In this document: piece by piece, positions 21,836 through 63,000 of the stretch
How the letters are laid out: each line of letters starts with the position of its first letter
Position numbering within the stretch: the first letter of the stretch is position 1
DNA from: Trypanosoma brucei
Lineage: Eukaryota
Length of the DNA stretch: 64,000 bases
Assembly: GCA_000002445.1 (NCBI GenBank)
Contig: AE017150.2
Coordinates: 480,001 to 544,000 of the forward strand
Direction of reading: 5' to 3'
Program-made: the position numbers and the translations under genes
The notes under the pieces: generated by a model
The model's input: the letters and a program-made list of their open reading frames with translations, nothing else
What the model was told of the DNA's origin: nothing
Databases searched by the model: none

Positions 21836-23563
21836 TCACCAAAAAACGCGGAGCAGGCCATATTTCATTGCTTCCGCTAGCGCTTGTGGTGACTCGGTTA
21901 CGCGACGCCCACGGAGTAGAAACGACGACCTCGGCAGCGGTGCCCACACCTCAGCCAGTTTGAGTACGCCATCAGAAGATTGCACCTCCCCGCTGTTCTG
22001 CAACTGTTTGCTATTTCTACTCTCTTTACGCTGCGACGCACCGCAGCTCAGGAAGCGGAGGTGATTCGTGTGAGGGTGGTCACGAGAGCCTTGCTGTGGC
22101 TGCATATTGGTTGTTTCTAGTAGCTGCTCAGCAACAACTAACTTCTCAGAAGCGGTTAATGCGGTGCCGGAAGCATAATAATATAAAATAGTGGAAAGTG
22201 ACCCCATTAGGGCGCCCTTTGCTTGACTTTGTGGGAAAAAATTAGCGCGCAACGTGCGACACAACGACTGCCGTGCCCACAAAAGGGGTGCAACAGCATC
22301 ACGTGCCGCGTCAGCGACACTGGTACGATGCCCTATTGTTGCTTCTTCAGTTTGTGGCCACAATGTGGTATGTGGCTTGCACAGCCACTCATGGTGATCC
22401 GTTCCTGTATTGAAGCGAAGCGCAAAAAATGTGCTCTCACAGCAAGGGCGGATGATCCACACGCCCACACCCACACTATCGCTGGATGCGAACCTTGGTT
22501 CCCTTTCTGCCTCATCAGCGCCAGATGAAAAGTTATCCCCGCCTTTGTGAGTCCTAAACGGGGTGTCAGCAGCGGAGTTTTGGTGCGATAGGCAGTGTGG
22601 ACACGACAGCTCACCGTTTCTTTGCTGTCGACGGATGTGAGAAGCAAAGTCTTTCAAGTTCAACGTCTCCGTGCCGGGATCGGTCAACCCCGGAATGTGG
22701 TGCAGCACCGCAACATGTTGAAGCCATACGGGGTGGTTTGACATCTTCTTTTCCTTCTCGGAATGGCGCTTGGTGCTGTTACTCTTGTTGCGGCTGGCGA
22801 TGATGCCGCCGCGGTGAGGCCACCCTTTATCAGAGCGGCGGAAACCACCGAACTCCCGCAGGAAGCCGCCGTCTTCCATGACAGCACGTGCCATACCCGT
22901 TTGGCATCTTCTCGTCATTTGGCTGTCCGGAAGAAGGAAACGTGGTGGAATGAAAATATTGTACACGGCGGGGGTAACAAATATCTTTGGAACGCCATTC
23001 GACCCCCCAGTGATCCTACTGTTGAAATCGCTGACCTTCTTTTCTCCACATTCCGCTTGAATGGAGGTGCTAACTCTTTGCAACTGGACGCGCTCCCACG
23101 GGATCGGTTGGCAGCACGCGCGCAGTCGGCCAACCGTAATAAATGCATGGCTTCGTGCACTGTCACGAGTACCTAACGGGATCGGGCCCCTCTTATTGAT
23201 ATCATCGGCGTTGTGGACGGCACGGGCTACTTTTACTTCTTCCGCTGCTCGTTTTGGGGGAAATATTATCTCCAACCGCTCTAATATAGTGGAGGGTGTA
23301 AGAACTATTTCACTGCAGCGCCTCTCGCCGCGAACTGCAAGACGTGGCGGCAAGGTATATGTGTTGACCGTTTCACGCATCTCGGCTTTGACGGTGTGGT
23401 CGGTTTTTGAAGTCGGTACCTTCCCGCGGTCGTTGGGCGGCGGCTTTGAGTCCAACAATGTGAAGGAGTGGAGCGGTACCACGCGCAGATGTGAAAATAT
23501 CGATTTCAGCAGAGCGGTGGAGCGCTGCAAGAACAGTGGCGGCGAGCGCAAAAGGCCACACAT
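21836..23563 (-). CDS. Hypothetical protein, 575 aa
   Basis: ATG at 23561-23563. A long non-repetitive ORF in the same orientation as the surrounding cluster. The true start may be an internal Met. No family recognised. Confidence 0.5.
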   Translation of the reverse strand: MCGLLRSPPLFLQRSTALLKSIFSHLRVVPLHSFTLLDSKPPPNDRGKVPTSKTDHTVKAEMRETVNTYTLPPRLAVRGERRCSEIVLTPSTILERLEIIFPPKRAAEEVKVARAVHNADDINKRGPIPLGTRDSARSHAFITVGRLRACCQPIPWERVQLQRVSTSIQAECGEKKVSDFNSRITGGSNGVPKIFVTPAVYNIFIPPRFLLPDSQMTRRCQTGMARAVMEDGGFLREFGGFRRSDKGWPHRGGIIASRNKSNSTKRHSEKEKKMSNHPVWLQHVAVLHHIPGLTDPGTETLNLKDFASHIRRQQRNGELSCPHCLSHQNSAADTPFRTHKGGDNFSSGADEAEREPRFASSDSVGVGVWIIRPCCESTFFALRFNTGTDHHEWLCKPHTTLWPQTEEATIGHRTSVADAARDAVAPLLWARQSLCRTLRANFFPQSQAKGALMGSLSTILYYYASGTALTASEKLVVAEQLLETTNMQPQQGSRDHPHTNHLRFLSCGASQRKESRNSKQLQNSGEVQSSDGVLKLAEVWAPLPRSSFLLRGRRVTESPQALAEAMKYGLLRVFW

Positions 23564-30000: not shown

Positions 30001-30263
30001 GTTCCTTTCCGCTTTCCTGTAGCGGCTGCTGGCTCTACCCCCATGGCAGATGACTCAGCACCTGATTTAGCTGGTTCCTCTCCCTCGTGTTCTAAGAGGG
30101 AGTGAAAGCGAGGGCCAGCGTCTGATTTGGGCGACGAAACGTGCCCTACGTTAGTCCCGACATACAAATCAAACGCCAACTGGGGATCACCTTCCGTAGA
30201 AACCCTGTCAATTAGAGGATGTTCTTTGTCATTCGCAGAGGACGGATTCCTCTTTCGAGGCAT
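27090..30263 (-). CDS. Hypothetical Ser-rich low-complexity protein, ~1057 aa; first gene of the minus-strand cluster
   Basis: The ORF-track start at 30275 is TTG, and the first ATG is at 30261-30263 (MPRKRNPSSANDKEH). A very long ORF with Ser/Thr/Gly-rich disordered composition. No domain recognised. Confidence 0.5.
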   Translation of the reverse strand: MPRKRNPSSANDKEHPLIDRVSTEGDPQLAFDLYVGTNVGHVSSPKSDAGPRFHSLLEHEGEEPAKSGAESSAMGVEPAAATGKRKGTENLLDLMEGDGDSSANNTTSLSLHQIGNVSFTYPCVDQVSRYREMKYDGEKTVSHDFNGTEESYRQGEEQLPLNSQESVTVDGVNTFLTQDTGITVSQYVSAFASNSTSPRLSPVALGALVSATPLVSNRAASCERAGSQVSVVLSPLSRPLSLALETPSSTCISVRGSSTRSSAPPQHLSRMSNSPTTYQQHFPLTRSRDEARELTVSTFTWNSSGVLDGGKEHGTSSMHSVDSLACIQQQRSLSTHARVGSGESDIFPHPSESMDSDIRVEKGRDPSLKGNLASLNRSSPRDTQPLLDDVKAPSAPPVQIMHRPPTVPNRTLKRNYEDVALSSGGEGSDDFYEDFNDFADDGEGSGDDFGEPDSRFQSHHSMQHRQRLFAPLMSRWRTSRRCASRSSYKRSKRLAGGSSAAGDGWNLAERLEQLEQIRVTNFEALEERKQHQQNQQSAATGTGDARAEKHKPRRAPHATSGSGSSTNDDCTAYSPASMSPNVEKSKRSRTAAEVDLTITPRVGNQTGRSLRSLSTPSSSRTLDNNIVKESGKVSSDGERAACEPTGELNDVNEYSIVSYCDSSNRGTTGEASPDDDRYNDDHKMLLPALGSIEPEDHLPNSGGSCRRSWGSSKGTRSAPHVLLKRTPRSTTLSYHRTTSVVASLLQKLMVQDSGKISIKLNQSHSTLGLADSKELTSPSKQNEQQKRGRRRQFARWKDRTKNLATVSRKVNNSNGAAAPVVACVKTAGRVPVPASVPLEAPTTTIVSPGAPVTYAATPHVEKSTEKHVPRNTPVHERGKDRRRDGCHFSPSRGESGTKPSQSLTFALVGQATKVGIRLAVSGGCNGNVTTTQSATPMTARPVCGRRYRTTTCSSNFQSSSATAGVLATANKRSSGCFQTTRPRNVAPGGNVAGPSPSSGSGGAAFFQSQATGIGSRTCGKSMQLSVLSCMEQHQATTRAGPREVSPLSIRGSPSAQS

Positions 30264-33200
30264 GTGACTGTACAAATAATAAGGGACAACCTCTTGCCGG
30301 AGGTGGCAGCAACAACACTATAATCGCTTTTCTTCCTGTCTATTAAGGTACACCAAAGAAATCTGTCGCAACACAGCCTAATTTGAACGTAGAACCGGAG
30401 GCTTACCACCCAACGTCACGCGCTTCCGTATATATATTTTGTGCCGTATACGAGGGTGGTAAAAGGGTGAAGGGGATCAAATCAGCGACAGTGACTGTAA
30501 TATACAATATCTTGTTACCCCTAGAACCCACTCCCCCCTCCTTCAGGCCTGCAAGTACAAATGCTTAAACTTTGCGCTTTACAAACGCTTAGCTGGATCC
30601 GAGATCCTCTTCCCTTAATACCTCCTACGCTATACAAAAGCTATAGGGTGCAAAACTTACGACTTTTTGCTGCTGACGTGTTGAACAAAAAATGAAAGGT
30701 GCATAGAGAAGACATCGACTTGCAGTGTTCGAAGAAAGATATTGTTAAAAAACAGTTGACTCATTTTATATTTTAGAATACTCCCCACGTGCATATTCTG
30801 CGCTCTTGCCAGTGCGGTGATACGACCAAAAACCCACAATAAGTCACAACACAGACCATCTGATGTGACGAGACATCAATGTCCTGACCCTGTGTAGAAA
30901 CAACAGGGTCGGGTGTTTGACCACTAGTCTCTCAAAACTCCTCCAAGCAATGACACGGAACACAAATGAACAGTTGGAACGGTTGAACACATCAGCTCTT
31001 CTACCCAACATATATTTCATATGAGCAAGTGTCCAGTAATTCACTCAGTAGTTAGGCCGCGGCTGTTGAGACGAAAGAGCTCCTTATCCAACCGATCGTT
31101 CCGTTGATAAAGAGGAAACATTCTACCTTGAGATGCCGCTAGTGATCCTGGTCGGCTGGGACGCCCCTTTTGCGCAGGATATAGTTGACCCCTTATATGG
31201 AATGTATAGTTCAACGGCCGGTAAAGAGCAGCGGCATACGCAGGATTCAATTGAAGCGCAGCCGCTGCCTCATCCATATTGAAGCGACCTCGACGGTCAC
31301 GCGAGCCTAGAGGGTAGTCACGCCAGCTGCTCCACAAAAATCGTGTCCTCTGGTACATTTAACTAAGCTAGCGCAGACGTTAGGATATTTGAGCGACACC
31401 CCTTACGATGTACAGTCCGTCAGGGAAACCCAATTCTATTACACTTCCCTGGATTTACCAAGTACACGACACCTATGTTCACCCTAAGAGTCCCAGAGAA
31501 GTACAGAGCACAGTGGAAGGACTTGTTAAATGTTAAGAACAGTAAGAAGACCGTCGTATCGTCATCAAGCGGAACGCACGTGGGGTAATGCAAAGACCAG
31601 GGTAAGGGTAAACAGAGCCTGAACAGCTATTTCGAGACAGCTTTTCAACTCAATAACAATACATCGACGTACAGACACCACCAATGGCCCCCCCTGGTAG
31701 CAGAGTCACGACTGCAAACAACAGGAGAAGTTCCAACACTGTCAATCATTAGGGGAGAGGGCAAGTAGACCGACCGTAAAATCTACAGCATGTAACGCCG
31801 TACGGTCGATGCAACGTATCGTTCACACTAGGAAGAGGATCTGAATCCAATGAGGAACACCCGCCAACAGCATCACGCGGGGTAAAGCCCATCAAACCAT
31901 AGTCCAAGATGGCAATGATGCCAGCGCCAGCAGAGACGCGCAAGCCAACCACACACTTGATTAGTTTCAGAGAAGTCAGGTCTTCCAAAGGCATGTTACA
32001 GGTCACAGCAGCTGCGACGCGGGAAGGGAGGTACCAAGGAGCTCACGGCGGACATTTTTTACCACCAATAAACAATTAATCAAAACTGGCCATACAGACA
32101 AACAGAGCCATTACAACCAGTAGCATGCTGCCTGACAGCGGAAGACAGCAATACAAGGGCAATCACAAATTTAAACAGAAGCGCGTATCTCCACAAAAAG
32201 ACACATCATCAGGATGTCATCCAAGCAGTCATGAAAGCAGCTTCGAGAGAGTAAAGGAAATAGCAATTCGAAAACCCCCATGCAGCGAGTTAAGCGGGGA
32301 ATAATGCTGTGGTATGCAGGAAATGGGGTTGAGACAAACAGATCCATCCAAAGCGGTAGTAAACAATGGAAGAGCAGGGACACTGCATGCCCAGTAAAGG
32401 TTGCCTTAAACATACTACTGGTGTATAAAAAACAATACAATATACAACACTGTGGTCGGTTACGTTTACATTATTCGCTACCAACGGTGAACCGACGCCG
32501 ATAGACGATCAATGACTAGAACTCGGCTAAAAGTAGTGCCAACTAGGGAACATACCCACCAAATAGACGTCATCAAACAAGCAAACACGAAGAGTGTGGC
32601 ATACGGTGAGAAGTGACGGCCGCTGCGCCGTCATGCCATCCAACTAAAGGAGTGTTGAAAGGCACTTTGGAACATGGTCGATCGCAGAAAAGAAGGGTTC
32701 TTTTATCCCATCTGTTAGTGTTTCCTGCAGAGCAGAATATGCGGGAATACAGACAGCAGCTTGGTATCCGACTGCAGTTAGTTGGCAGAAGCGACCTCAG
32801 ATACTTGATTGAGGCGGTCTCGCAGGATGCAGTGAGAAACTATCGCTTAAGGAGTCAGCTCCACTTTCCACCAAGAAACTGTCAACCCACATCCCGTCAC
32901 TTCGTAACAACGGTGCTGTGGAAGACAGTACCAAATCTTCACTGCCACTAAAAAAATGCACGGAAAGAGAGAGAGGCCTCTGTAGCCGTTTCAACTTTGT
33001 CGATGCCATCAATGCTACTTTCAAACCTGGCGGTACAGAATACTACCAATAAACTCAGCATATTCACGACATTTCTTAACCACAAGCAATATTTCACTGC
33101 TTAGTGCCAGCATTAAAGCATCCCTCTGGCCTTAAATATCGTGCGTTGCCGCACCTTCGTTCTTGGTTATGCAGTAGCACTCAACTTCTGCTGCCCTGAC

Positions 33201-34300
33201 CCACCCTGGTGGCCCAGAACACAAAACAAATGGCGCTCTCTTAGTGCGGCTACTTGCTGTGCGTGAAGGTATACTCGTTCTGCGGACTGCCGTTTCATCG
33301 GATTGTTTCCATGAGGTTGCAACACTTCCATTGCCGCATTTTCCACAATTTTATTCGCTTGCTGTCGTCTCTATTGACGATACTGTGCTCGATCGATGTG
33401 GTCGTCAGCAGCTGGAGTACTCAAGCCATGTGCCTTCCTGAAGCGCGACGTGGAAGGCGCCTGCACGAACACACACACCGGTCAACTACGGCCCACCAAA
33501 ACTCTCTCTTATTCGATCGCATGCTCTTTCACGAGAAGTGGTGCAGCATTTCTACACTTCCAACTGTACTCCGCTTTAGGTAGAAACAACGATGTGCGGC
33601 CGCGTTAAGGTCATTGTCACAGCGAAATGAAGTTGCCCCATCGAACGGGTTGTAGATTGCAGTAGCAACGGGTGCCAAAAGCGCCACGAAGTTAACTTCA
33701 CGAGGGGAAGGAAACGAGTTAAGTCCCTCAAGCTTTTCACTGCCTGCCCGCAGGGTTGTTTCCGCTGAAAAAGAGGGTTCGAACGCCGACCCCGCGGTTC
33801 AGCCTTTACTTTTTGCTGCAACAGGCGTCAAAAACTGATGCAATAACTCATTTGGAACTTCGAGCGGGTTGAACGCGGTGGCTAACAGAAGGCGAAGGCA
33901 ACCGGCTTACGTGTATCAAGCGCCAGATGGGCACCACCCAGTTTCCTTATCCCACATACCAACGATCCATTGACGCACTTCGGTGCAACAGGTCACTCGC
34001 GCTCATTTTGCCATTGCTTCGTCCGCGCTGCACAAGACGCTTACAACAGGAATCGTTCCTTACTTACCTTTCCATACGTTTAGTCCACGCATACCTTGGC
34101 GGGGCCTTTTCCACCCACTTTCTCAAATGTGTCAGCGTCCCCGATTGACCGTCTAACCCCACCTTGGCCTCTTCTTTGTCTTGTCCCCCTTTACATGCGC
34201 TTGGGTTCTGTGCGTTGGCATGTCATCCGTTGCAGCACTGAGCCTGTTCTAACTGGCAGAAGCGCCGCCCGCTGCACTTTCTGACTCTATCGCAGCTTTT
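30264..34300 (-). promoter_or_regulatory. Left half of the divergent strand-switch region; A+C-rich on the plus strand (G+T-rich in the direction of minus-strand transcription); putative dispersed Pol II start zone for the minus-strand cluster
   Basis: No ORF over ~105 aa on either strand. The composition is the reverse of the right half. The position lies between divergently oriented first genes. GT-rich start regions are described for T. brucei Pol II units. Confidence 0.45.
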
Positions 34301-37300
34301 GATATCACAGCTCCAGCCGACGTAGACCCTCGGTCCTTGCTGTTTGGATTCATGCATTTCGTGGGTAAGGGTCGCAGGACTTCTGCGCCTGGTTTCAAAT
34401 CTTCCAGCCTAAACAGCTTGGAGCGGCGGCGTTCCAGTCGTCCCCAAGGCGCCAACCCTCGCACCGCATCCTCACTTACCCCGCAGCCAGTGTGAGATAA
34501 CACAAGGGGCTCGTACTGTAGCAGTAGGGGAAGTTCCTTGCACTTTATGTATTAGTTGCTGCTCGGCTCTCCCTTGTGTGTCCGCCCCTCTGCTGCGTAT
34601 GTTTGTCTAGGGAATTTTGTCCCATACGTGTTGTCTGCGGCGCAGTCGTCGCGGTGCCCTTTGTGCCAGCGTTGACGAAAGGAACGTTTCATCACCCACA
34701 GCCTCTTTTATCATATCGTCGGTCGGGTGCTTATTGTTGGTGTGCGACGGAGTCCACGGTGTGTGGGCACACTTCCTCTGAGGCCGGCTGCGTCTGTACC
34801 ATGGCCCGCTCTTTGGCCAAGGAGCACCGGTTTGCTGTAAATTATGCGCAGTTTACGCCGTTGCGTCATGGTTGGAGGTTGCCAGCTCCTGTTGCCGTCG
34901 GTCTGGTGCCTTTCGTCGTCTTAAAAATCGTCTGCGTCTCAGGGGGCCGGCTTCGCTGTTTTTTGATTTGGTCTCGCTGTGGGGCTACCGGGCCCTTTGG
35001 GTGCAGTATATGTGATATTTCCTCCAGTCCGCGCTCCGCGAGCTTGTTTGATGGGTATGGCGTTGCCTGCGCCCTCTTGTCCGTAGGCATTGGTGCCCTC
35101 CCTTGTCACGGCGGCTGGCCACCTTCGCTACATACGTTGTGATTGTTTAGTGCTTCAGGTTCTGCAGTATATCAAGGTCTGGGCTGGGTTATGCGGGCGC
35201 GGCCTCGTTTGTGCGGCGTCCGACTCGATTGGGCCACTTGGGGTGCGTGGAGCCGCGTACGATATATGGTGGTTTGCTTAGTAAGGATCGTCGTGCCTCC
35301 TTTTAAGTATTTCTAGCGGTCAGCCCCATACAGCGCCTTCGTGGTTGCCTGGAGAAACCACCATCGGCTTTGTGCACGTTCTTGGCGCAGCTCTCTGCGT
35401 GTGTTCCTGGAAGGCGTGTGTTTGGCGTATCATGTCTTTGAGCAGTTGTTCGTTTGTCTTGGGGACTTTGACTGCAACTTTGGCAAATGTGCTCTTTCCT
35501 TTTGGTGGCATTTTTTTTGTATATCTCTGGGCCGGATGTTGTACTTCTACTTTGCTTTTTCTTCCCCCATGGCAGTCGTTTTAAGACTTGACTGAGGAGA
35601 TTGACCTCGTGCGCTTGGTAGTTTCTTAGTGACCTGTTTTCTAATTGTTGAATGGCTTTCTCTTACCCAGATGTGTGCGTTGTGACAGCGAGCGGCTGTT
35701 ACATTATGATGAAGTCGTTGTTTCCTTAGAAGTGAATCACGAGATGGACTCCCGACTGAACCATTTTGGTGGAGTCGAGATGTTCTTTATTTTAAATTAT
35801 TTTTATCAATCTTTTCTTTTGCCGACTCGCAGCACTTGTACTACTCGTGCTTGCGGACTCTAGGAAAGAGGGGAAATTTCGTTTCGGGTTGTTCTGTAGA
35901 AGATTGTACGATAGCATCCTAAATATTCCTTATGGCTGTTGGGTAACCGCCATGGTGCATTGTTTTGTGTGATTAAAAGCGCATTGATCTCCGCAGTGTT
36001 CTCTATTTCTTGTTTTGGTTAATAATGCCTCCTTTTTGTTGTACCCGTGGCTTTTTTTGTTTGAGAGGGATTTAACGCTTTTTTCCACAGTGTGTACTGT
36101 CGTGTGTGTGTGAAAGCCGACGTTCCACCATTGCCCCCGTGATGTGACCTCCGTTTTCCCCCTTTGAGAGCATTATGTGCACATTTGCGGGGAGTCAACG
36201 TTTTTTTGGCGTGGGTAAATGTTTAGGTGTAAATATTTTGGTATTGCGATTGAAGGACGGAGGTTGCCTCGCTGTGTTCGGAAGCCTGATTTACACTGTC
36301 AACAACTTACAGGACCCTCAATAGTCGTCGGAGTGCGTGACCAAGCTACAGTGCACGCCTTTTGCTGTTGTACTTCCTTGTATTGCAGGGCAACCAGGAT
36401 ACTTACACGGTTTAGTAGACAGCCCTTTGTGTGGCGTGTGACAGAGGGCTGAAAAGCTACCTTCGATCCGTTTTGAAGGAATGGACGTGCTTCACGGAGG
36501 GTTTCGTCTTTTAAATCCCCCTTTCGAACTCGTTTAAAGCTTTTTCCATAGAGTGTTATGTTGCCCTTGCTATGCTTCTTTTATTACTTTTACCGGCAGT
36601 GGTATGCGTTTTATCTTTTCTCCTTTAGTGACTTCCGCTCCTACGTAGCGTGGGGAAGTTACAGTATCTTCATAATGTGTGGATATGGTGGTTGCTTTTC
36701 TTTCAAATCTTTTCCGTTAGGCATGTGTCTCGGTTTTTTCGTCGTGCCTCTGAGTGCGATCGCTGTTGCCACTATTTCCAATCCTTTTCAAAAGCCGAAT
36801 GAAATAATTGGTCGTGCTGTTTGCACTTTTCCTGTATGCATAGGTCGCTAACAACCTACTAACCCCTTGTCATCTCGTTTGTGTTGCAGTGTAAAACTTG
36901 CTGTGTTGGTGCTCGGTCTGTGATTGCGGCTGCTGGCCCGTTTGCTTCACTAACTGGTGACGGCTGTCGGGACACACATGCCGAGGAGTAAACGTATAAG
37001 CTTGTATCTTGTTTTGTGCTTTCGGAATTTTCGTGAATTCCTTTCTTCCTTTCGCACCTTCTCTGACTATTTTCCTCTATTGTGTTCCAACAGCACCGAG
37101 AAGAGGTGTTGCTGCAACTCCCTGCATGCACATGGACGACGGCGTTGTTTTTCTTTTCCATCAATATTCTTCCAGTGGTATTTCTCCGCTCGGACCGTGG
37201 TTGTATTTGGTTGTACTGAAAGGTGATGGAGGTTACACACACCACTCTTTTGTATAGTTATGTAACCGTGGCAACTGCGGGGAGCCCTGCTGGTAATTTG

Positions 37301-39904
37301 TTTTGGTTGCTAATGGGGGTTGTCTTATACGTTTTTTTCTTTGCACGGGATATGGTTATTCGTGTAATCTTTGTTTTCGGCTACTGCCCTTATTTCTGTT
37401 TCCTGCGCCACTCGTCTCTGTTGGAAGTTGCACGGGGCGACAGGACCAGTTTTGGTAAGATGGGTCGTGGACCTTTCGGGGTTATCTCCGTTTCACAACT
37501 GGTGGATCGCGATAGTAATATATATGCCTGCTGTTCTTTTTTTTTATCTTTGACAATAGAATCGAAATCCTTACTTGTATCGGTATAGATTCTTTTTACA
37601 AATTTCCATTTCCGTCTCTGCTTGTGTTCTTAGTTCCTGTTTTTGCATTTCGGTGATGCAGGTGCGTCGGTGCGCACTTCGTGCCGATCATCCAGCGGCC
37701 GGCTCTACCTGATTTTTTGAATCAGACATGCTCTTCGTAATGTTTGGTCATTGTTTGGCAGTGTAGTGTACTTCGTGAGATAGGTACGATCTTTTGTTTT
37801 CGTAGTAACGCTTTCCCTATGTTCTCCGATACGGTGTAATACTTGGAATCGGTTGTGTGCTTTATGTTTGCCACTGTAGCGAAGCACTGGGTGATGGTTG
37901 GGGTGTAAAAATATGTTATGGGATCCGTCAAGTTGCTTTGTATTTGTTAATTTCCGTATGGGAGGATGTTGCTCAATGTGGCTGATACTTTGTGGTCTCT
38001 TGATTTTGTTGTTCGCATGGGCCGACGTCGCCGAGGGAGCAGTAACCCATCGTGACGCTGCGTGTGTGTGATGATTGCACGGAGGGAAAGACTTTCGTGT
38101 TAGTTTCCTTCGTAGGGCTCATATCGTACTTCCGTGTATTGTTCTTTATATTGTGATCCTAATTTCTGTAACATCTATTGGCTCGCACTCCCTCTTTTTA
38201 TTTGTTTCTCCGGGGATTTTTTTTAACTTTCCTCTGCTGGTGGACCCTTTGAGTGCAACGCAGACTGTTGTGATGATGCCGGTGGGGTTTGAGAATGGGA
38301 AGAAGATGCCTCCGGGGAGAGTAGTTGAGCGACTATTTTTGGCTCTTTCGGATTGCATCTACCCTAATTCTTTGTGGGGTTCCACTTAATTCTGCTCTCC
38401 GTTGCTTCGAAGAAACTTCCTTTCTGGCACGCTAATGTTCAGCGTCAGCTTTGTGGCGCCTTTATTAACGGCACTTTGTGCTACCCTTGGTCCGTGTTTC
38501 TGTACTATTCTTCTTTACTGCACGAGCGTGCAGTGTCGCTCTGTCGGACATTACAACATATGCTATGCATATCGTCTCCAGTTTTTTCTTCGTGTATTTA
38601 CGGGCTGGTTGAGGGGGCCTTTTCGATGTAACTTTATTCGTTTTCTGACGCTTTTTCACAGGTGCTTGAGAGTCACCGACAATTTGTCCATCCGATACAT
38701 ATCTTTCGTTTCCTGAAGCCTTTTTTCTTCAAAAAAAAAGGCTGATTAACTGGGTTGTGCTTGTTCATCCGTCATTTGGGATCTAGCTCTTCTTTTACGT
38801 TTTAACGAGCTGTGTTAGGTCGGTATATCTTGAGAGTATGGTGTGCTTGGCGTGTAGTTGGGAGGATCAGGGAGGTGTTTTTGTTTGTGTCCATTAACTA
38901 ATCGGCTTGCTCGGTTTTGTTGTTTTGCGCAGAAGAAGCATGGTGTTGCTGGGTTGTGTGAGTCGGATGCATGCGAGTGATGAAGCAATGAAGACAGTTT
39001 AGAAGAGGTCTATGAGAATATGTTACTGTGTTTATTGCTCCGCCACTATACTTTGTTAATGATAATGGACACAACGGTAACTATGGGGCAGTTACCAACT
39101 CCCTTAGGTCAGATTGGTTTACTGCTTATTTCGCTGTGCGCATCCCGATTGTTGAAGCGCACTTTCTTCATTTGTGCATATCATTTTCCGAAAATCGAGG
39201 GAGCATTGTCAACCGTTTTTTTGTTACGGCTAGTACGGCGACATCAAGTTGGTATGAAGCTATCTAAATGAAGGTGATCGCAATGAAAGCAGAGGACGGG
39301 TGGCCGACGATGCCCATTTGGGAAATGCGTTCTCACTCATTCGTTCTTTCCACTAGGGCTTTCTGCGGTTGATTTCCTCTATTTGTGGGTTACTTGAAAT
39401 CAATTTCCACATTTTTATACCTTTTTGCAAACGTGTGACATCCACCTGCTGTATGCGTCCACCTGAAGTTAGTCCAGACACTTAAGTTAACATTGATGTA
39501 CATTTTCTACCTCTTTCATTGCTTTACCTTGTTACATTCATTAAGCACATTGCTGTGTGGCTCACAGCAGGGGCCTTGTGCAAACAGAAATAGCTCCCGT
39601 TTTCTGTGATAGGAGGCAATAAGGTGTGAGTCAAAGTTCGGGGAGATTGGGTTCTGCTTCCCGATAGGACCCGCCTCTAGCGCAGTTTGGTGTTAAAAGA
39701 TCTTGTCGAAGGAATTTGTACTGGTTGAGGAAGAGGAGTTGTTGGCTTGAGATATACAACAGCTGTTTACCGCATTTGCACATTCTGAACAGGCGTGCCT
39801 GTGGCCCATAAGCAAGGAATTGCTCACGGTATTCTCTGGAGGGGTACCTTTCTATTTCCGGGCTGATAGGCGCTTTTTCGTTCAGCCACTTAACGTCCCC
39901 CGTG
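34301..39904 (+). promoter_or_regulatory. Right half of the divergent strand-switch region; strongly G+T-rich and A-poor on the plus strand for ~5.5 kb; putative dispersed Pol II start zone for the plus-strand cluster
   Basis: Visible T/G excess over A/C on the plus strand from ~34.5 kb to the first ATG at 39905 (runs such as gtttgtgtg, ttttggtt, gttgtt). No ORF over ~190 aa, and those present are T/G-codon artefacts (F/L/V/C/G-rich). Confidence 0.5.
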
Positions 39905-42900
39905 ATGCTCAAAGTTGCTCCGAGTGAGTTGCAGTTTGGCACGCTGGCGGTGAATGAGACACCCGCGTATTGTCGTTTCTGTGTTCAGAACGCTGACACA
40001 CATGAATCTTTATCGGTGAAGTTGACGGCTGCGACTTATTCATCTTGCGTCCGCTTCCAGCTTTGCGACGACGCACTGCTAGTAGACGACGATGACGCTG
40101 ATGGTGGTGGCATGTACGGATCTTGGCAATGCTCCGACACACTAGGGCCAACGCCGAAGTTTTACAACGCTGCCTACGATAGTATTAATTTGATTGAACT
40201 ACTTGAACTTCACCCGAACGAAGCACGAGAGATCATTGCTATCTTTAGTCCCGATCCTGAGGTATTTCCCAATGTTGTGGAGCGTACGGCACCGACACTG
40301 GTGAGTGGTACCATTCAACTGACGTCTACTTCACTCCCAAGAGCAACCCCGGCGCGTTCACTAACGTGGAGCGACGATGTGGGTTGCGTCACCTCCTCGT
40401 GTGCGCCGTCTCCCCTGCTTTGCGCTGGTGACAAAGGCTGCTCGCCTCTATTTTCCTCGCAACCTACACCGCTGTCCCGCACTGCGGACGGTACGTTAAA
40501 GAGCAAAACAGTTACATCAGCCAACCGCGGCTTTCTTCACGCCGCCGTCCGGTCGGAGACTCTGACCCTCCCATTCAGTGCCACCGTGTTTCTTTCTGCA
40601 TTCACTGTGTCTGTGTCAGAGCTCCAGGCAACGATGGCTCCCAGTAGAACGCACCTGATGGGATTCAAAATAACGAATATTTCACCGCTTCCGCTGCAGC
40701 TCGTCATTCGTATGCAAACGATGCCCCACAAAAACGTTGAATTAACTGTCTGTGAAGAAGACCAGTTCGAAGTGTCACTGATCGGACGGGTGTTAGTGCT
40801 TGATGGCCATGCCTCGATGAATTTCACTGTCATCGTCCGCACTGCTGCTGTTTCCGAACTGGCCGGTAGTGGCGCGATAATGAAACGGTTTTGTCACCGC
40901 ACTGTTCTTCAATGTGATAATCTTCGTGATGCACGCAACTCAGAGCTTATATCGGTTAATGTGAATGTTGTGCCTGAGCACCTTCAGAAACCCCTGGTTA
41001 GCGTGGCTGACCCCTACCTCGACTTCGGTGCTGTGTACCGAGGTACGCGGGTTGTGCGGGAGGTGAGTATTTGCAATGTTAGCCGTGAAGATTTAACGGT
41101 GCGCTTGCTTAACCCCCGGCCACCGCACTGCGAAGGTGTACTAACCCTTGTTCGTGGTGCCAGAAGTGAAGCTAGTGGCGGGAAGGACATAAAGAGCGTA
41201 AAAAATAGTACCCCTGTTAAGATCACTGACAAGAAGAAGAGTAGCACCGCTGTCGTAGGACCATACGATAACATTGTACCTGCTGATGAGCTCGTAATGG
41301 CAGCTCAGAAGGGCTCATTGCAGGTTGGCGTCATGTACGTTGCGTCCACGGACTCAGAGTATAAAGGGACCGCGAACCTCAAGTTTGAACTGGATTTCGT
41401 CATCACAGGATATGAGAGTGGTGCCAATAGCAGCAGGCGTGAGCAACGTGTGGTTGTTCGGTGTGTAGCGACACTCTTTACGAGCACCATCGTGGCTCCG
41501 CTAACTAATATCAACTTCGGAGACTGTCCTGTTGGCCAGACACGCCGGGTCACATTTCATATTGAGAACCCTTCGCTACTACCAACTACCATCAACGTGC
41601 AGCTTCGAAGTAAAATTGTCTCTATTGAAGGGGTGCCCGCGCGGCTCTCCGAAACGGGCGCACCTGAAACAGTCGGGGAGTTTTCCATTGCGCCTCAGAG
41701 CAGTCTGCCTTTGACGTTGCGGATGACCCCACAACGTGTCAATCCAACGTACTGCAAGCAGCTTACTGTTGTAAACGTATCAAATCCTGCGGAGGACCGT
41801 CTCATATTAACCATTGAGGCAAATAACATGCAACCCGCCGACATGGAGCTTCATAATGAATTCTATACGTGTGAGAGTCGGCCCCTGTGCTACGAGGATG
41901 GAGTGAACAAAACTAGGGACGGGGCTAGTGGTGGTAGCAGTATTGAAGCGGATGAACGTAGCGGTGGTGGTGCAGCACCGCTGCGTGCTATTGCAAGTGT
42001 TCCGCTTTTTGTTGCCTACAGGCTGCTGTCGAGGGTGAACTATCCTCTCGAGCTGCAGCTTTCTACGACAGGTGCGGAGATTGGTACATTTTGTTTGGAG
42101 GGGATGCCGTCGGCGGACTGGGAGGCACTTGCTGTGGAGCTGCACTCATGCTGTTGCTTTGGCGGCGAGGATACGGCTAGTAAATTGGCACCTGAGCGTG
42201 CGGAGGAGGTGCGAGACGGAGTAATGCGTGCGTTGAATAACCACGCTATGTCTGTAAGTTCGGTGGTACTGGAACCGCGAGGCAGCACCACTTTGTATGC
42301 CTGTATTCTGCGAAATTCAATTGGCGGCGTGGACGCTGTGACAAAGGAGGATGGTATTAATATAGGCATAGAGCACGTCGAACTGCGGCGTTTTATGCGG
42401 CTTTCGTACCGGGTTTGTTCCACACGCTTTGAACTGGGCGGCCAGAGGGCTAAACACTTCGGAGAGGTAAATGTCGGTGAGCGGAGGTCTACAAAGGTGC
42501 CCATCACCAATCAGTGCAATTCTCTGTTGCTTCTACGCGTGACGAAGTCACGAAGTGTTATGGCTGGCTATATTCGTGTGGATGGCTCAGATCGCAATTC
42601 TATTTACTTTCGCATTCGTCCGTTCGCTACGAAAGAACTGGAACTAACCTTTTCTCCGGGGCTGAAGGGGAGCCTTGAGGAACGTATTCAGTTTGTTAAT
42701 ATCCTCAACCCTGGCAACGAAGTTGTAATTACTGTAAAGGCTACTGTCACTAAGGCCGAAACTTTCGATGTAAGCCCTGATTCGTGGAGCTTTGGTCTCG
42801 TTTCCGTGCCAATGCTTCAGCCGGTTACTAGTGGCGTCGCAACAAACGTCAGAGGATCGACTTTAGTGGCGGGAAAGGGAAACGGAGGTGCTGGCAATGA

Positions 42901-45900
42901 CGATAGTAGCCGCCAAGTGGCTCGCGTCGGAGCCCGTTTCACTGTGTCTAACACAAGTAGCGCGCGCCGTGCCTTGCGGCTGAAGCTTGACACCACGGTT
43001 AGTAACAGCAGTGTGGGTGGAGGAAATGAAAATGCCCATTGCCCATTGGAGCGTTTTTTCAGGTTTGAGGGGATTGATGTTCGGCTGCAGCTGGAGATGG
43101 AACGGGGTGGCGCGTCTTCCGGTTCTTCCCGGAAGCTGGAGGAAAAGATTGAGAAACTCGAGCAAAAGTTGAAGATATATCGTCGTAAGAACAAGGTTGA
43201 TAAAGTTGCTGCTGCAGTGCGCCAGATTGAGGAGCTTAAACGCGCACTGATGGGCGAGGTTGTGGATATCAACACACTTGAGCCTGACGATGGTGACACA
43301 AAGAGTAGAGATCCCCAACAACAACGACTTCAGGACTTGAAGTCCCCCCGTGAAACCCCCGAAGGCGAGGACGAGAAGTTTGCAGCCTCCAAGGTGCGGT
43401 TGCAGGAGCACGGTGAGCTCCTCTCAATGCTTCTTCGGGATGGGATTGCGTTATCCGAAATGAATGCTGGGGAATCAATTATTCTCGTGCTGGGGATTAC
43501 ATGCACCCGGACGGCTGAGCACATTCCGGCAGCACAAAGTGGCATTTTAACTTTTGTGCTGTACGAGGCAAACGACACGGAGGCAAGCAGAACCATACCT
43601 GTCGATATAACACTTGTGCGTGTAGAGGGGGAAGCAGACATCGGAACAGTGGTAGGAGGGGAGAGGCCGTTGGCCCATGCGGGCAAAGCTGGTGGAGGAT
43701 CAAGCACCGATGCAAATTTGCCGGGGATACTGCCGCCGACGCCTCGTTCTCCGTCACGTCCAGGGAGCGACAACCCATCGCCGATGCAGGCTCCTCCAGA
43801 AACATCAGGAGGAGCCGCACAACTGACGCGACCAGGACCAGCCTCACAGTGTGATTCCACCTCGTTTATATCACTTGAGCTGGGTGATGTTGTGGGAGTA
43901 TCATCTTTCATGTGCTTTCCAATGATTTCATTAAACAACTGCGTTGTGCAAGAACGGTGTGATTTTACATTTTACGTGCGCACTACTATGGACACCTCGA
44001 TTGTAGTACTTGAGCCCTTTCGATGTTGCGGCCCCGGTGTCGTTACCAGCGGTAGCTACGGTGGGTGTATGGATGCCATGGTTGATGCCTGTGGAGCTAT
44101 GGATGACCGTGAGATTTGTAAGGGATCAGCGGCTGTTAGCCACATGGCGACCGCCAGGGTTGTTGGTGAAGAAATGTCGGCCCTTTCAGGGCCTTGCTCT
44201 ACGTTGAGAGCGACAGTAAGAACTTTGGATGCGTCTTTCAGGTTTTCTCGACGGAGGGGTGCTCTCCACTCGCGACAGCCGCTTTCCATCAACGTTCAGT
44301 GCACACCGAGTAGCGGTGGTCCGCAACGCTACTTTATCCCCGTCGCAAACCTTCAGGACGAGGGCAACGTGACTTACCTCGTGGTGAGCCTTAATCCATC
44401 GCCAGTGGATGATGGATGCCTGCTTAAAGTGGCTCCAAGCACTTTGAGCATGCGCGACATCGTCCTGCCATGTGACACTGCTCTTTTGGACGTCCAATCG
44501 TTTGCTGTGCGTAGCCATGTAGGCCGGCCGCATGCGTTACTTATTCGATCAACTAGGCCGGCACTTGTCAGACTGTTCGAGGACGCCAAATGTAGCGTCC
44601 CACTGAAAAACCCCGTTAGGTGCTCATTTTCCGAGAAACTTAAAGTTTACGTGCAGCTTCGCCCAAGCGAACATTCTCGAAAGCATGCAAGTCGAGTGGT
44701 GACCGCCGGCATACTCATTGAGGCTATAGTCTCTACCCGGGGCCTCGACTGTGGGCATAGTGGTGACCCTATTCACGGAGGTCAGTGCGGTTATGCTATT
44801 CTCGCGCATTCCGTTGTCCGCGTGTCTGCACGCATTGGCAGCGGTGAACTGGTGTTGCGTGAATCATTTATCGATATGGGCTCCGTGGCTCCTCACTGTC
44901 ATCAGGCCCAAACCACTCTAACTGTGTGGAACCCCTCCGACTGCTTTGAGGTGCGGGCTCGGTTGGTTGCCTCCATGCCGCTTACCGGCATTGGCATTCC
45001 CGAAATTACCCTCCCCCCGGGTGGTAAGGTTGATGTGCCCATAACGTTGCATATTCCGACTCCGGGACTTGTCCGTGAGTCGATATCTTTGCATAATCTT
45101 AGCTGCAAGCAGAAGACGCTGAGTGTGCGACTTAATGTGTTGAGACTTGATGAAGCGATATCAGTAAGCGTCGTCCCATATGAAGTCCAGATGCAGGGAG
45201 AAGCGCTGCTGCATTCAACCGCGGTTCATCCCGGATGTGCTCAGGATGGTTGTGGTGTCGTAGCTTTCCCCACCGCTGCTGTTGTATGTGGGGAGGGCGG
45301 TGTGTTTCGCCTCCATAACCCCGTGGTTAGCACCGCCATGCATGTGACAAACAACAGCATGAGGAGCCTCATTCTTATAGCAAGGAGCAGCGCCCCATTT
45401 GTTTTCGGGCATCCTGATACCACTTTGCAGCTGTCGGGAGTGCCACCGTATCACGAAGATGGCTTCGTTTCTATGTACCTGCCCTCTCCACCCGATTCTT
45501 ATCCCTCTTCTTTGGCTGAGACGGAGACAGAGACGGAGGCCGAGGCGGAGATGAAACCGCTTTCACATTCGTATACCCGCGGTCGTCTGCTGCTTGATGC
45601 GCGTCACACACAGGCGGTCGCGTGGACGCTTACATCGACTCCGCCGTTTACTCTAAAGCAGAAGCAGCGGCTGCTGCGACACGAGCTGGTAACAGTGGAG
45701 GTCGCAGCGTACATCTACGTTGGTCAAGTCGTGGAGGAAACGACAGGTTTTCCATTTAATGACATGATGTTCTCGGCGGTGCGGCCCTTGCCAATGGCGG
45801 AGCAGTGCGTTCTCGTACCAAAGTTTTTGCTTAACTTCGCGGTGAGCGAAGGCCGCGTGGAACCATCCGTTATTGACCTGGGCGTTGTTGTTGTGAATAA

Positions 45901-48900
45901 GGGCCACGTGGGTAGTAGTCCGCTAACGTCATCCACCGCGGAAGTCCCTGCGAAGCAAACTGATGTATTGTGCAAAAACGAAGTCGATGTCCCAAAATTG
46001 CGACGGCAAGCTGAAATATCAACAGCCACTGCACCACGTGCGGAGAGAAAGGATGGAAACAACCTAAATCATGCCATATCAATACGGTTGGTGAACTCTT
46101 CTTTTGTTTTGCCTTTGAACTTAAGCGTGGAGTGTGAACCCACGGTGAGGTTTGCGAGCAACCGTGTGACGGTACCTCCTGGTCAAACCGTTGTGGTGGA
46201 GGCTGTGCTCGTTCCGAAGCTGATCCAGTCTGAGGGGCCATTTCGTCTTTCCGTTTACTTCGTGAATGAACAGAATCCAGAGAATGACATGGTTGTCTGC
46301 GTCACGGGCCAATACTACCAAAAGTCGTTTAGGCTTTCATGGGACGGAGTCGTTGATGGCCGCAAGGAGTCGCTGTCGATGCAACCGCTTCGTTTGGAAG
46401 ACATATCCACCGCTACTTCGGCCGTTCTCTCTCAAACAAAAATCACAATGACGGCCGTAGAGCCAAACATTGAGGTTGGAGTACGGGCAGTTGTGAATCC
46501 AGAGCTTGAAGGTGTTATTCAGCTTCAGGCACTGCAGTATGACGCCTCTTCCACCCTGCAGAGCGTTATATTTGGCCAAGTGCCACTGCTGGCCATGGCT
46601 GGAAACACCAATCCCAACAGCGACAGCGTCGCTGGTGTGTCTGTTAACAGTGGTGGAGCCCCTGGCAACGGTGGGAGCAACAATGGCAGTGGGTTAACGG
46701 CTGGCGCTGTGGGCACGGGCTCGAATACTGGTGGAATAACTCCGGTCGGTGCCGATTCTGGGGGCGCTTTACCCGCTGTGGGTGTGGCGGGCAGCGCTGG
46801 AGGTCCGCTGAATGCAGGTTGTGGTTGTGCCGCAGACAATCCTGCAGCGCCGTCAGTCCCAGGAAGGGGCGTAGTGGTTTGCTCAAAGGATCATCAACAA
46901 TTTCGGTTGCGTTGCGTACTTGTTAAGGAGGATTTTCCAGTGTTGGCGGGTGTTTTCTTCGGGCAGCGAAAGCATAAACACACGGCCGATATTCTTCGCG
47001 AGAGACAGGGCCTAACATTCACCAAGCTTGAGGAGTTAAAGTCGCAACGTTCCGCGGTATCCCAAACGATGTGGTTAGGAACACTCCACTTCTCGAATGA
47101 GGTGACGGGAGGTGATGAGGAGGTGCAAATATTTAGTTCACTTAGCGCGTTCTGCACTTTCAAGGTATCGTCCAAACTGGTGCTCCGGCCACGGTGCTCC
47201 TTGACTTCGGGATCCGCCGTGGACGGTGCAACTGCAGTAGCACATGTGGGGACGGCGACAGTAGCTCCCGAGGCGATGTACGTTTATGAAGGTGAGTTGG
47301 TTGTCTCAAATCTCTGCCAGGAGCACGTTGTAAGGCTTTCCATCACCCCGTTGCTAAATTGTGGACATCACGACGGTGTCGTTCTTCAGTGCGTATCGTG
47401 TGAAGGATCCAAGGATACGGCAGGGATGTCTGCGGATGATGCCTCTGCGACGGGAAATAGCAATAATTTCGCCAGCAGTGACATTGGTTACGGTGACGGT
47501 GCTAACCTTGCTGATGTATGTACGAAAAATGACTCACGGGCGTCCCTACCAGTTTCTAGTAGTGCTCATCTACCAGAATTACCGCAAACAAACGTGAAGT
47601 CCCCTGGTACCGCCTCACAATCAACGGTAATAATGCCGATATCTCCTCAGAATACCGTGCGTGTGCGGGTGTTGCTTTGCATAGACAGAGCGCGTAACAA
47701 ATCGAGTGTTGAACAGGGCGCTGGATTGGCCCTGTTTGATGAAGCCGTTGCGTGCAGCTTCGCTGCCGTTCGTATCTCACTTGCGCCGGCAGATGATAAC
47801 GACCGAGAGAAGGAGCAGCAACAAAAGCAGCAAGAACAACTTACCAGGCAACCCTTTCGACGTGCGGATTCCTCTGGTGTTTTGGCTAGTGGAAATTCTG
47901 GCTCCGTTTCTTACAAAGCCGTAAAGGACAACATCTCGGAAGGAGAGAAGGGGGTTGCAGCAGACAGGGAGGACACTGCAGTAGGGAATGCTGCCCCACC
48001 CGGGAGCAACCCGTTGGATGTAACACCCGATGTTAAACCTGACCGCCCCGAGATCCTCTCTTCGCAGCTCACACGGTCCCACACTGTGCTCTCCCTTAGC
48101 GGCAACTGCACCGAAGTGCGCGACTGCACGGGGGTGTACACCTCTAGCTTTTCTTTCAGCAAGGACTCCGTGCCCACTACAGACATCACTATCACTAATC
48201 ACCTCAGTGACGGTGCGGTTGAGTATGCCGTTGCTGTCATTTCCCAAGGCCCACAGCCATGGTTGCTTCTTCCAGTTTCCACCGCTGTGCTGGAACCTGG
48301 GGAGACCCAACCACTTCGGCTCAACATTCTCTCCACAGATGCTGGTTCGTTCGTTGGTCACGTGAGCATCAGCAGTGGTATCACCCCTGGAAAGCTAATC
48401 CTGTTGAAATTGAATGCTGAGGTGTTCCTTCCCACTGCGGGGGAGGGTCTGTTTGAAATTCTTACTTCCAATGGGCAGCGTCTCTCTAGCGGAATGGAGA
48501 AAGATATTTTCGTTGGGAGGCTCTTTGGGGACAAAACTCACCGTGCCCGCGTGGCCCTTGAGATTGTGAACCGCTCCTCTGTTCCTCTTGAGTTCCCTGT
48601 GAGTGTGGGGAAGTCGATGCGCATGGAATACATAAGTGCTCCGGGGGAGGAGGTGAGCTCAGCAATAATGAGGAACAATATCTCCGATACCGCAGGTGGC
48701 CGCGACGTTGATCTGAAAACTGGCCCACGCACCGCGAAGGAAGCCGATGAGGAGGATAGCAAGCAGCAGGAACAACGCGGAGCTTACAATGATGGTGACA
48801 GGGGTTCCGGTAACGTGCCTGGTGCCTCTCATCCCCGGTGTTCCGTCCGACTTCTCGTGTGTCATTTACACAGCGTGTCGGCGATGCGTGGCGAGCGATA

Positions 48901-50879: not shown

Positions 50880-51432
<553 letters not shown>

Positions 51433-58508: not shown

Positions 58509-58533
<25 letters not shown>
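58509..58533. repeat. (TA)n microsatellite
   Basis: tatatatatatatatatatatatat. Confidence 0.9.

Positions 58534-58539
<6 letters not shown>

Positions 58540-59632: not shown

Positions 59633-59663
<31 letters not shown>

Positions 59664-62959: not shown

Positions 62960-62961
<2 letters not shown>

Positions 62962-62996: not shown

Positions 62997-63000
<4 letters not shown>

What the first reader, a model, noticed from the sequence alone, without database searches (positions are those of the whole stretch)
30264..39904. 9.6-kb divergent strand-switch region with mirror-image G+T skew meeting near 34.3 kb
The two gene clusters diverge here. The plus strand is A+C-rich and complex from ~30.3 to ~34.3 kb and becomes strongly G+T-rich and A-poor from ~34.5 to 39.9 kb, so each half is G+T-rich on its own coding strand. 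That is the pattern described for dispersed, GT-rich RNA Pol II start regions with H2A.Z deposition in T. brucei. The break point near 33.6-34.5 kb would be the boundary between the two divergent start zones. The region is unusually long and contains no credible protein gene.
Basis: partly seen in the sequence, partly recalled or inferred. Interest (0 to 1): 0.6.

Follow-up and report, generated by a model that had tools for sequence, protein, structure and literature searches.

The report
Known divergent transcription start region, T. brucei
This is the gap between two back-to-back gene clusters on Trypanosoma brucei chromosome 2, already catalogued as a place where RNA polymerase II starts in both directions; the strand bias is real but strong on one side only, and the region is not gene-free or unusually long.

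Summary
The window is T. brucei TREU927 chromosome 2, bases 480,001-544,000. Published splice sites map to it to the base. The finding is the divergent strand-switch region between Tb927.2.2590 and Tb927.2.2650. Kolev et al. 2010 (Table S14) already list both as first genes of "Divergent" Pol II transcription units.

The skew switch is real: cumulative G+T skew has its window-wide minimum at 34,163. It is not a mirror image. The right arm (34.5-39.5 kb) is +0.22, the most skewed 5 kb in the window. The left arm is +0.086 on its own strand, equal to ordinary intergenic DNA (+0.080).

"No credible protein gene" is wrong. ORF 31041-31358 (-) is mitoribosomal protein mL99, 100% identical to PDB 6HIV chain Bg. 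Two published low-abundance spliced transcripts also lie inside: Tb2.NT.19 and Tb2.NT.20.

"Unusually long" is wrong. The other chromosome 2 divergent gaps measure 6.8, 8.0 and at most 13.6 kb, against 8.1 kb here.

Nothing else was found in the gap: no Pfam, PDB, Rfam or tRNA match and no repeat of note.

Verdict: a real but ordinary, already known feature. The GT-rich promoter reading fits the plus arm only and cannot be separated from a by-product of transcription.

The parts
31041..31358 (-). Tb927.2.2590, mitoribosomal large-subunit protein mL99 (105 aa).
   Evidence: 100% identical over 105 aa to mL99, PDB 6HIV/6HIX/6YXY chain Bg (E=1e-68). A second mL99 chain, 7AIH_BF, matches at E=8e-34. 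Cluster members are listed. Kolev Table S4 gives SAS 511483 with a 125-nt 5'UTR, so the ATG is at 511358 = window 31358.
31359..31483 (-). 5' UTR of mL99. The major trans-splice acceptor is at 31483 (66 reads), a minor one at 31472.
   Evidence: Kolev 2010 Table S4. The AG dinucleotide is read directly on the minus strand at 31485-31484.
31610..32279 (-). Tb2.NT.19, a published novel spliced and polyadenylated transcript (669 nt, 0.31 RNA per cell). It coincides with the only clearly A+C-rich (plus-strand) part of the left arm.
   Evidence: Kolev Tables S4 and S7: 512279->511610, SAS at 512240 and 512279. Skew of 31401-32600 is +0.183 on the minus strand.
32280..34163 (-). Low-skew, GC 0.50-0.55 central zone. 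By elimination it must hold the minus-direction start sites and any untranscribed gap between the two start zones. It carries three minus-strand polypyrimidine tracts (32686, 32962, 33702).
   Evidence: Skew of 32601-34163 is -0.048 on the plus strand. No Pfam, PDB or Rfam match. That the start sites lie here is inferred.
34163..34163 (.). Switch point of G+T skew (global minimum of the cumulative curve).
34506..39505 (+). Sustained G+T-rich, A-poor block (+0.224). It is non-repetitive and non-coding, and is the candidate plus-direction dispersed start zone and leader.
   Evidence: There are 16 Wedel 10-mers on the plus strand against 1 on the minus strand, and nine plus-strand polypyrimidine tracts. 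No Pfam or PDB match in any frame, no Rfam match, no repeats of note.
37762..39416 (+). Tb2.NT.20, a published novel spliced transcript (1654 nt, 0.09 RNA per cell). Splice acceptors are at 37762, 38254 and 38819.
   Evidence: Kolev Tables S4 and S7. An AG is read directly before each site.
39546..39904 (+). 5' UTR of Tb927.2.2650. The major splice acceptor is at 39546 (105 reads).
   Evidence: Kolev Table S4. AG at 39544-39545.
39905..50194 (+). Tb927.2.2650 (3429 aa, ASH/HYDIN-like Ig repeats), the first gene of the plus-strand transcription unit.

Best explanation
The interval is the divergent strand-switch region of T. brucei chromosome 2 between Tb927.2.2590 (mL99) and Tb927.2.2650. It is one of the catalogued sites where RNA polymerase II starts two polycistronic units in opposite directions.

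Shown here:
- The minus unit yields Tb2.NT.19, mL99, Tb927.2.2580 and onward, spliced from 32279 leftwards.
- The plus unit yields Tb2.NT.20 and Tb927.2.2650, spliced from 37762 rightwards.
- So minus starts lie right of 32279 and plus starts lie left of 37762.

Inferred: the two zones abut near the skew minimum at about 34.2 kb. Initiation is of the dispersed type described for T. brucei, in H2A.Z/H2B.V/acetylated-H4 chromatin. On the plus side, the roughly 3-kb G+T-rich stretch (34.5-37.8 kb) upstream of the first splice site is the kind of sequence that Wedel et al. 2017 showed can drive directional initiation and H2A.Z deposition.

The minus arm has no such block. G+T richness is therefore not a symmetrical property of this region.
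For: Identity and coordinates:
- Flanking proteins are exact matches to TREU927 entries.
- Three gene starts and six splice sites from Kolev 2010 fall on the right bases, with AG dinucleotides, using window = chromosome 2 coordinate - 480,000 (sequence).

Catalogue entry as a divergent Pol II start region: Kolev Table S14 and text.

Strand indicators flip together:
- cumulative skew minimum at 34163;
- polypyrimidine tract asymmetry;
- Wedel 10-mers 16:1 on the plus arm and 0:4 on the minus arm.

The right arm is the most skewed 5 kb in the window.

Wedel 2017 reports about 10-kb H2A.Z regions, initiation at their 5' ends, and G/T-rich coding-strand 10-mers that drive transcription when inserted between divergent units.

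No alternative content was found in the gap.
Against: - No chromatin or nascent-RNA data for this exact locus were available to me. The start zones are bounded only by the outermost splice sites.
- The hallmark of Wedel's region 1, G runs (G10 is by far the top 10-mer), is absent. There is no G run of 6 or more anywhere in 30.3-39.9 kb.
- Density of the Wedel 10-mers on the plus arm is about 3 per kb. That is close to my estimate of about 3.3 per kb for an average TSR 5' fifth (1,309 hits over 199 TSRs, assuming fifths of about 2 kb). It is lower than in the ordinary intergenic DNA at 50-53 kb, which has 19 hits on the plus strand. So the 10-mers do not set this region apart.
- The minus start zone (32.3-34.2 kb) is functional by the published catalogue yet almost unskewed.
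Confidence: 0.85

Rival explanations
1. The G+T skew is a consequence of transcription, not a promoter code. Non-coding DNA that is transcribed in one direction drifts to G+T richness on the sense strand. Causes would be transcription-coupled mutation bias plus selection for U-rich and polypyrimidine processing signals. The right arm is then simply a long stretch of non-coding sense-strand DNA. This rival is not exclusive of the best explanation; it disputes only the causal role of the skew.
For: - Every intergenic region but one in the window is G+T-rich on its sense strand (mean +0.080, up to +0.20).
- An ordinary 3' UTR (57954-58953) reaches +0.338.
- Four-fold degenerate sites of the plus-unit genes are skewed as well (+0.16 and +0.11), and this is flat along 10 kb of Tb927.2.2650.
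- The minus arm's skewed part coincides with a transcript body (Tb2.NT.19), while the presumed minus start zone is unskewed.
- Wedel 10-mers are as dense in ordinary intergenic DNA as here.
Against: - Wedel 2017 showed that synthetic GT-rich elements drive orientation-dependent reporter expression and H2A.Z deposition, so a causal role is documented elsewhere.
- The 34.5-37.8 kb stretch lies upstream of any mapped splice site and is more skewed than any other long non-coding stretch (+0.22 against +0.13 or less).
- Four-fold sites of minus-unit genes near the region show no skew, so a uniform transcription-coupled bias is not evident.
Confidence: 0.45
2. The central low-skew zone (about 32.6-34.5 kb) additionally serves as an ORC1/CDC6 binding site or replication origin, as at many T. 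brucei divergent strand-switch regions.
For: Tiengwe et al. 2012 report the following: 62 of 88 divergent regions bind ORC1/CDC6, binding is central between the two H4K10ac peaks, and 19 mapped origins centre on divergent regions. The central zone here is distinct in composition (GC 0.50-0.55, no skew).
Against: No locus-specific data were found. There is no sequence signature to test. The asymmetry of skew between the two arms argues against a long-standing symmetric bidirectional origin shaping composition.
Confidence: 0.3
3. The gap hides further genes, decayed genes, retroelement relics or structured RNAs that account for its length and composition.
For: The T. b. gambiense annotation places two more ORF models in the gap. 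Two low-abundance transcripts exist.
Against: - All stop-to-stop segments of 45 aa or more, in six frames of 31359-39904, give no Pfam family and no PDB chain.
- No tRNA, no Rfam match even at E<=1, no tandem or dispersed repeats of note.
- Plus-strand ORFs in the right arm are expected from the lack of A, since stop codons need A.
- Divergence from T. b. gambiense is 7-15 differences per kb across the gap, against 4-6 per kb in coding sequence.
Confidence: 0.07

Closest known systems
Divergent strand-switch regions / divergent transcription start regions (dTSRs) of T. brucei (Siegel 2009; Kolev 2010; Wedel 2017)
   Same: Two polycistronic units point outwards. The gap between first-gene splice sites is about 8 kb. 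There are low-abundance transcripts upstream of the first genes, sense-strand G+T and polypyrimidine bias on either side of a central switch, and no tRNA or other Pol III gene. This very locus is in Kolev's Table S14.
   Different: Nothing categorical. The two arms are unequal in skew, and G runs are absent.
GT-rich dispersed Pol II promoter elements (Wedel et al. 2017, EMBO J 36:2581)
   Same: The plus arm is G+T-rich on the coding strand. Wedel's coding-strand 10-mers occur 16:1 in favour of the plus strand, at roughly the average density of a TSR 5' fifth.
   Different: There are no poly-G runs, few GT-dinucleotide runs, and no enrichment over ordinary intergenic DNA. The minus arm lacks the feature. 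Promoter activity and H2A.Z deposition were not tested for this sequence.
Strand compositional skew at transcription-unit boundaries in trypanosomatids (McDonagh et al. 2000 for L. major, as cited by Wedel 2017)
   Same: G over C and T over A on the coding strand, switching at the divergent region.
   Different: Here the skew is carried mainly by T over A (+0.35 to +0.39), with a small G over C component (+0.06 to +0.14).

Membership tests
T. brucei divergent Pol II transcription start region | Two protein-coding gene clusters transcribed away from each other. | tested here: met
   ORF layout. Splice acceptor strands from Kolev Table S4.
T. brucei divergent Pol II transcription start region | Experimental evidence of initiation (5'-triphosphate RNA enrichment) at the locus. 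| tested here: met
   Both flanking genes are listed as first ORFs of 'Divergent' units in Kolev 2010 Table S14. The paper states that enrichment was seen at every divergent unit. I saw the catalogue entry, not the read track.
T. brucei divergent Pol II transcription start region | Enrichment of H2A.Z, H2B.V, H4K10ac and H3K4me3 in twin peaks. | not testable with these tools
   No ChIP-seq tracks are available here. Siegel 2009 is not held.
T. brucei divergent Pol II transcription start region | No Pol I or Pol III gene, and no centromeric repeat, explains the strand switch. | tested here: met
   No tRNA, no Rfam family, no tandem repeats in 30-40 kb.
GT-rich promoter element (Wedel 2017) | G+T excess on the coding strand, strongest at the 5' end of the start region. 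| tested here: inconclusive
   Met on the plus arm: +0.24 at 34.55-36.0 kb and +0.22 overall. Not met on the minus arm's 5' end: +0.05 at 32.6-34.16 kb.
GT-rich promoter element (Wedel 2017) | Coding-strand 10-mers of Dataset EV1 (G runs, T runs, GT repeats) enriched at least 6-fold over the non-coding strand. | tested here: inconclusive
   The strand ratio is 16:1 on the plus arm and 4:0 on the minus arm. Density is no higher than in ordinary intergenic DNA (19:3 at 50-53 kb). There is no G run of 6 or more.
GT-rich promoter element (Wedel 2017) | Drives orientation-dependent transcription and H2A.Z deposition when tested. | not testable with these tools
   This needs a reporter assay. Wedel's tested fragments come from chromosome 10, not this locus.
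Sequence-specific Pol II promoters (Cordon-Obras et al. 2022) | A defined core promoter motif within the start region. | not tested
   The paper is not held, so the motif was not available to scan.

The most novel reading that the evidence does not exclude
The two arms of this region use different means to start transcription. The plus unit has a 3-5 kb G+T-rich dispersed promoter. The minus unit starts from a compact, unskewed, GC-richer 1.9-kb zone (32.3-34.2 kb) with no GT-rich element. If so, G+T richness is dispensable for Pol II initiation at a natural T. brucei start region, and the long GT-rich block may serve another role, such as directionality, insulation, an R-loop or nucleosome-poor zone, or the Tb2.NT.20 non-coding RNA.
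Probability: 0.15. Interest if true: 0.4.

Novelty: already known. Interest (0 to 1): 0.12.

Why it matters
It matters little beyond a clean confirmation. The locus is a textbook T. brucei divergent transcription start region that was catalogued in 2010, and its composition fits what was described in 2009-2017.

Two points are useful:
- Skew alone does not mark a promoter here. Ordinary UTRs and intergenic DNA are as skewed, and one of the two start zones is unskewed.
- A 105-aa ORF dismissed by eye is a structurally verified mitoribosomal protein. That is a caution against calling long inter-cluster gaps gene-free.

Tried and rejected
- Cross-species comparison failed. The search for homologous proteins with the N-terminal 1200 aa of Tb927.2.2650 returned only a fungal protein. 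With mL99 it returned only its own PDB chain. No T. congolense, T. vivax, T. cruzi or Leishmania locus could be fetched.
- Comparison within Trypanozoon (T. b. gambiense, T. equiperdum OVI, T. b. equiperdum) shows about 1% divergence in the gap. That is too little to reveal conserved blocks.
- Six-frame Pfam and PDB searches of the gap found nothing.
- Rfam at gathering threshold and at E<=1 found nothing. tRNA scan found none. Tandem, direct and inverted repeats gave only short chance-level pairs.
- G-quadruplex motifs: one on the minus strand at 33194 and none on the plus arm. Not pursued.
- Literature: Cordon-Obras 2022 and Siegel 2009 are not held. Wedel's tested TSR fragments are on chromosome 10. 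A search for mL99 together with Tb927.2 gene IDs found nothing.
- Considered and rejected: replication-direction bias as the cause of the arm asymmetry. Four-fold-site skew differs between the two units, but intergenic skew does not differ consistently.
- Considered and rejected: a centromere or retroelement reading. There are no AT-rich arrays and no reverse-transcriptase remnants in 30-40 kb.
Full report
**Where the window comes from.** The gene layout is trypanosomatid: a minus-strand cluster up to about 30.3 kb and a plus-strand cluster from 39.9 kb. Exact protein look-ups place it in the T. brucei group. The left-flank protein (27090-30263, -) equals XP_951558.1, the right-flank protein (39905-50194, +) equals XP_951560.1, and the kinase (53630-58135, +) equals XP_951562.1. 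All are from T. b. brucei TREU927.

Kolev et al. 2010 (PMC2936537) list splice acceptor sites (SAS) with 5'UTR lengths in Tb927_02_v4 coordinates:
- Tb927.2.2580: SAS 510672, UTR 409.
- Tb927.2.2590: SAS 511483, UTR 125.
- Tb927.2.2650: SAS 519546, UTR 359.

These put the three ATGs at 510263, 511358 and 519905. That is window 30263, 31358 and 39905 with a constant offset of 480,000. I checked in the sequence that an AG, or the listed variant dinucleotide, sits directly before the sites at 31483, 32240, 32279, 37762, 38254, 38819 and 39546. The window is therefore Tb927 chromosome 2, 480,001-544,000.

**The observation.** In 200-bp windows the plus strand is strongly G+T-rich from about 34.6 to 39.4 kb (+0.16 to +0.39).

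The right arm 34551-39904 has skew +0.217 (A 18%, T 35%). 34506-39505 is the most skewed 5-kb stretch of the window (+0.224, against +0.132 for the next).

The left arm is different. 30264-34550 read on the minus strand is +0.086. The length-weighted mean of all other sense-strand intergenic DNA in the window is +0.080 (my arithmetic). Only 31.4-32.6 kb is clearly skewed (+0.18), and 32.6-34.5 kb is neutral. 'Mirror image' overstates it.

At 1-kb scale the most skewed piece of the window is an ordinary 3' UTR behind the kinase gene (57954-58953, +0.338). The right arm stands out by its extent, not its intensity.

**What is inside.** ORF 31041-31358 (-), 105 aa, is 100% identical over its whole length to mL99 of the T. 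brucei mitoribosome (PDB 6HIV/6HIX/6YXY chain Bg, E=1e-68). A second PDB mL99 chain, 7AIH_BF, matches at E=8e-34. It is Tb927.2.2590, with a well-used splice site at 31483 (66 reads). The true gap between first genes is therefore 31359-39904.

Kolev's Tables S4 and S7 also place two novel spliced, polyadenylated, low-abundance transcripts in the gap:
- Tb2.NT.19: window 32279->31610, minus strand, 0.31 RNA per cell.
- Tb2.NT.20: window 37762->39416, plus strand, 0.09 RNA per cell.

Nothing else turned up:
- All stop-to-stop segments of 45 aa or more, in six frames of 31359-39904, match no Pfam family and no PDB chain.
- There is no tRNA.
- There is no Rfam match at gathering threshold or at E<=1.
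- There are no tandem arrays and only short chance-level repeats.

The many plus-strand ORFs of 60-188 aa in the right arm are what an A-poor sequence gives, because all stop codons contain A. Two ORF models that the T. b. gambiense annotation places in the gap have no support.

Divergence from T. b. gambiense is 7-15 differences per kb across the gap. Coding sequence shows 4-6 per kb, and the intergenic DNA at 24-26 kb shows 16-19 per kb.

[quoted passage not shown] The paper states that 5'-triphosphate RNA reads were enriched at every divergent transcription unit. So the interval is an already catalogued divergent Pol II start region.

The published splice sites bound the start zones: minus starts lie right of 32279 and plus starts lie left of 37762. 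Three independent strand indicators flip between these bounds:
- the skew minimum at 34163;
- polypyrimidine tracts of 12 nt or more, with three on the minus strand at 32.7-33.7 kb, nine on the plus strand at 35.5-38.7 kb, and only one stray on the opposite strand between 31 and 39 kb;
- the coding-strand 10-mers of Wedel 2017 Dataset EV1, 0:4 (plus:minus) at 30-34 kb and 16:1 at 35-40 kb.

**How it most likely works.** According to Wedel et al. 2017:
- T. brucei Pol II starts over broad regions at the 5' ends of H2A.Z domains about 10 kb wide.
- Every 1.8-kb fragment of two tested start regions had promoter activity.
- G/T-rich coding-strand 10-mers, assembled into synthetic elements, drove orientation-dependent expression and H2A.Z deposition.

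The 34.5-37.8 kb stretch, G+T-rich and upstream of the first plus-strand splice site, fits that description. This step is inferred, not shown, for this locus.

Three observations limit it:
1. The top feature of Wedel's list, G runs, is absent. There is no G run of 6 or more in 30.3-39.9 kb.
2. The 10-mer density on the plus arm is about 3 per kb. That matches my rough estimate for an average start-region 5' fifth: 1,309 hits over 199 regions, about 3.3 per kb if a fifth is about 2 kb. It is lower than in ordinary intergenic DNA at 50-53 kb, which has 19 hits on the plus strand and 3 on the minus.
3. The minus start zone (32.3-34.2 kb) is nearly unskewed.

The main rival, that skew is a by-product of one-directional transcription of non-coding DNA, therefore stays open. 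In its favour:
- All but one of the intergenic regions in the window are sense-strand G+T-rich.
- Four-fold degenerate sites of the plus-unit genes are skewed (+0.16 and +0.11), flat along 10 kb.
- The skewed part of the minus arm is the body of Tb2.NT.19.

A further, non-exclusive role of the central zone as an ORC1/CDC6 binding site is plausible on general grounds. 62 of 88 divergent regions bind ORC1/CDC6 centrally between the acetylation peaks (Tiengwe 2012). It is untested here.

**Length.** Using major splice sites of first genes, the four divergent regions of chromosome 2 measure:
- 7,987 bp (Tb927.2.1600/1680);
- 8,063 bp (this one);
- 6,795 bp (Tb927.2.5080/5120);
- at most about 13.6 kb (Tb927.2.5540/5600).

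The region is typical, not unusually long.

**Verdict.** The feature is already known and ordinary.

The only mildly interesting residue is the asymmetry of the two arms. It suggests that G+T richness is not needed for initiation on the minus side. Public ChIP-seq and 5'-PPP RNA tracks, or reporter assays, would settle that.

**What I could not do.**
- I could not map chromatin or nascent-RNA data.
- I could not scan the Cordon-Obras 2022 promoter motif, because the paper is not held.
- I could not fetch syntenic loci from other trypanosomatids, because the homologue searches returned nothing usable.

Noticed in passing
window 51130-51432 (+): This is the gene for histone variant H4.V (Tb927.2.2670), 100 aa with a histone fold. 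Its splice site at 50972 has 813 reads, the highest count among the sites I saw quoted for this stretch. H4.V is one of the variants that mark Pol II termination regions; here it sits 11 kb downstream of a start region.
   Followed up: yes
window 16788, 24150, 26487, 26708 (+ strand): There are G runs of 10, 10, 12 and 13 nt on the plus strand inside the minus-strand unit. On the coding strand they read as poly-C, the opposite of the coding-strand poly-G enriched at start regions in Wedel's list. The only canonical G4 motif nearby is at 26477.
   Followed up: no
window 58136-64000: This is a very AT-rich stretch (GC 0.28-0.39) with many A and T runs on both strands and TA/TATATA microsatellites. 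It holds the published transcript Tb2.NT.21 (60022-60985, +) and the small gene Tb927.2.2770 (61346-61723, +, no Pfam match). It is much more AT-rich than other intergenic DNA of the window.
   Followed up: partly
CDS of both clusters, e.g. 27090-30263 (-) against 39905-50194 (+): G+T skew at four-fold degenerate sites differs between the two units. Plus-unit genes give +0.16 and +0.11. Minus-unit genes near the switch give about 0 (+0.01 for Tb927.2.2580), and the distal RPN6 gene gives +0.24. This could reflect codon usage, expression level or replication direction.
   Followed up: no
window 14285-15097 and 15601-16413 (-): These are two tandem VDAC/porin genes (Tb927.2.2510 and Tb927.2.2520). 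The exact-sequence look-up of the first copy returned two accessions per genome, so the second copy probably encodes the same 270-aa protein. The two coding sequences also have identical base composition.
   Followed up: partly
L002 3261-3620 and 6217-6558 (about window 37739-38098 - and 34801-35142 +): The T. b. gambiense DAL972 annotation carries two ORF models (119 and 113 aa) inside the strand-switch region. They are not among the gene calls listed for the T. equiperdum OVI locus, and they have no Pfam or PDB support. They are probably spurious ORFs in A-poor sequence.
   Followed up: partly
window 21836-23563 (-): Tb927.2.2550 is annotated as 514 aa in TREU927 but 575-577 aa in T. equiperdum and T. 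b. gambiense. The mapped major splice site (window 23608) lies upstream of both candidate start codons, so it does not decide between them.
   Followed up: no
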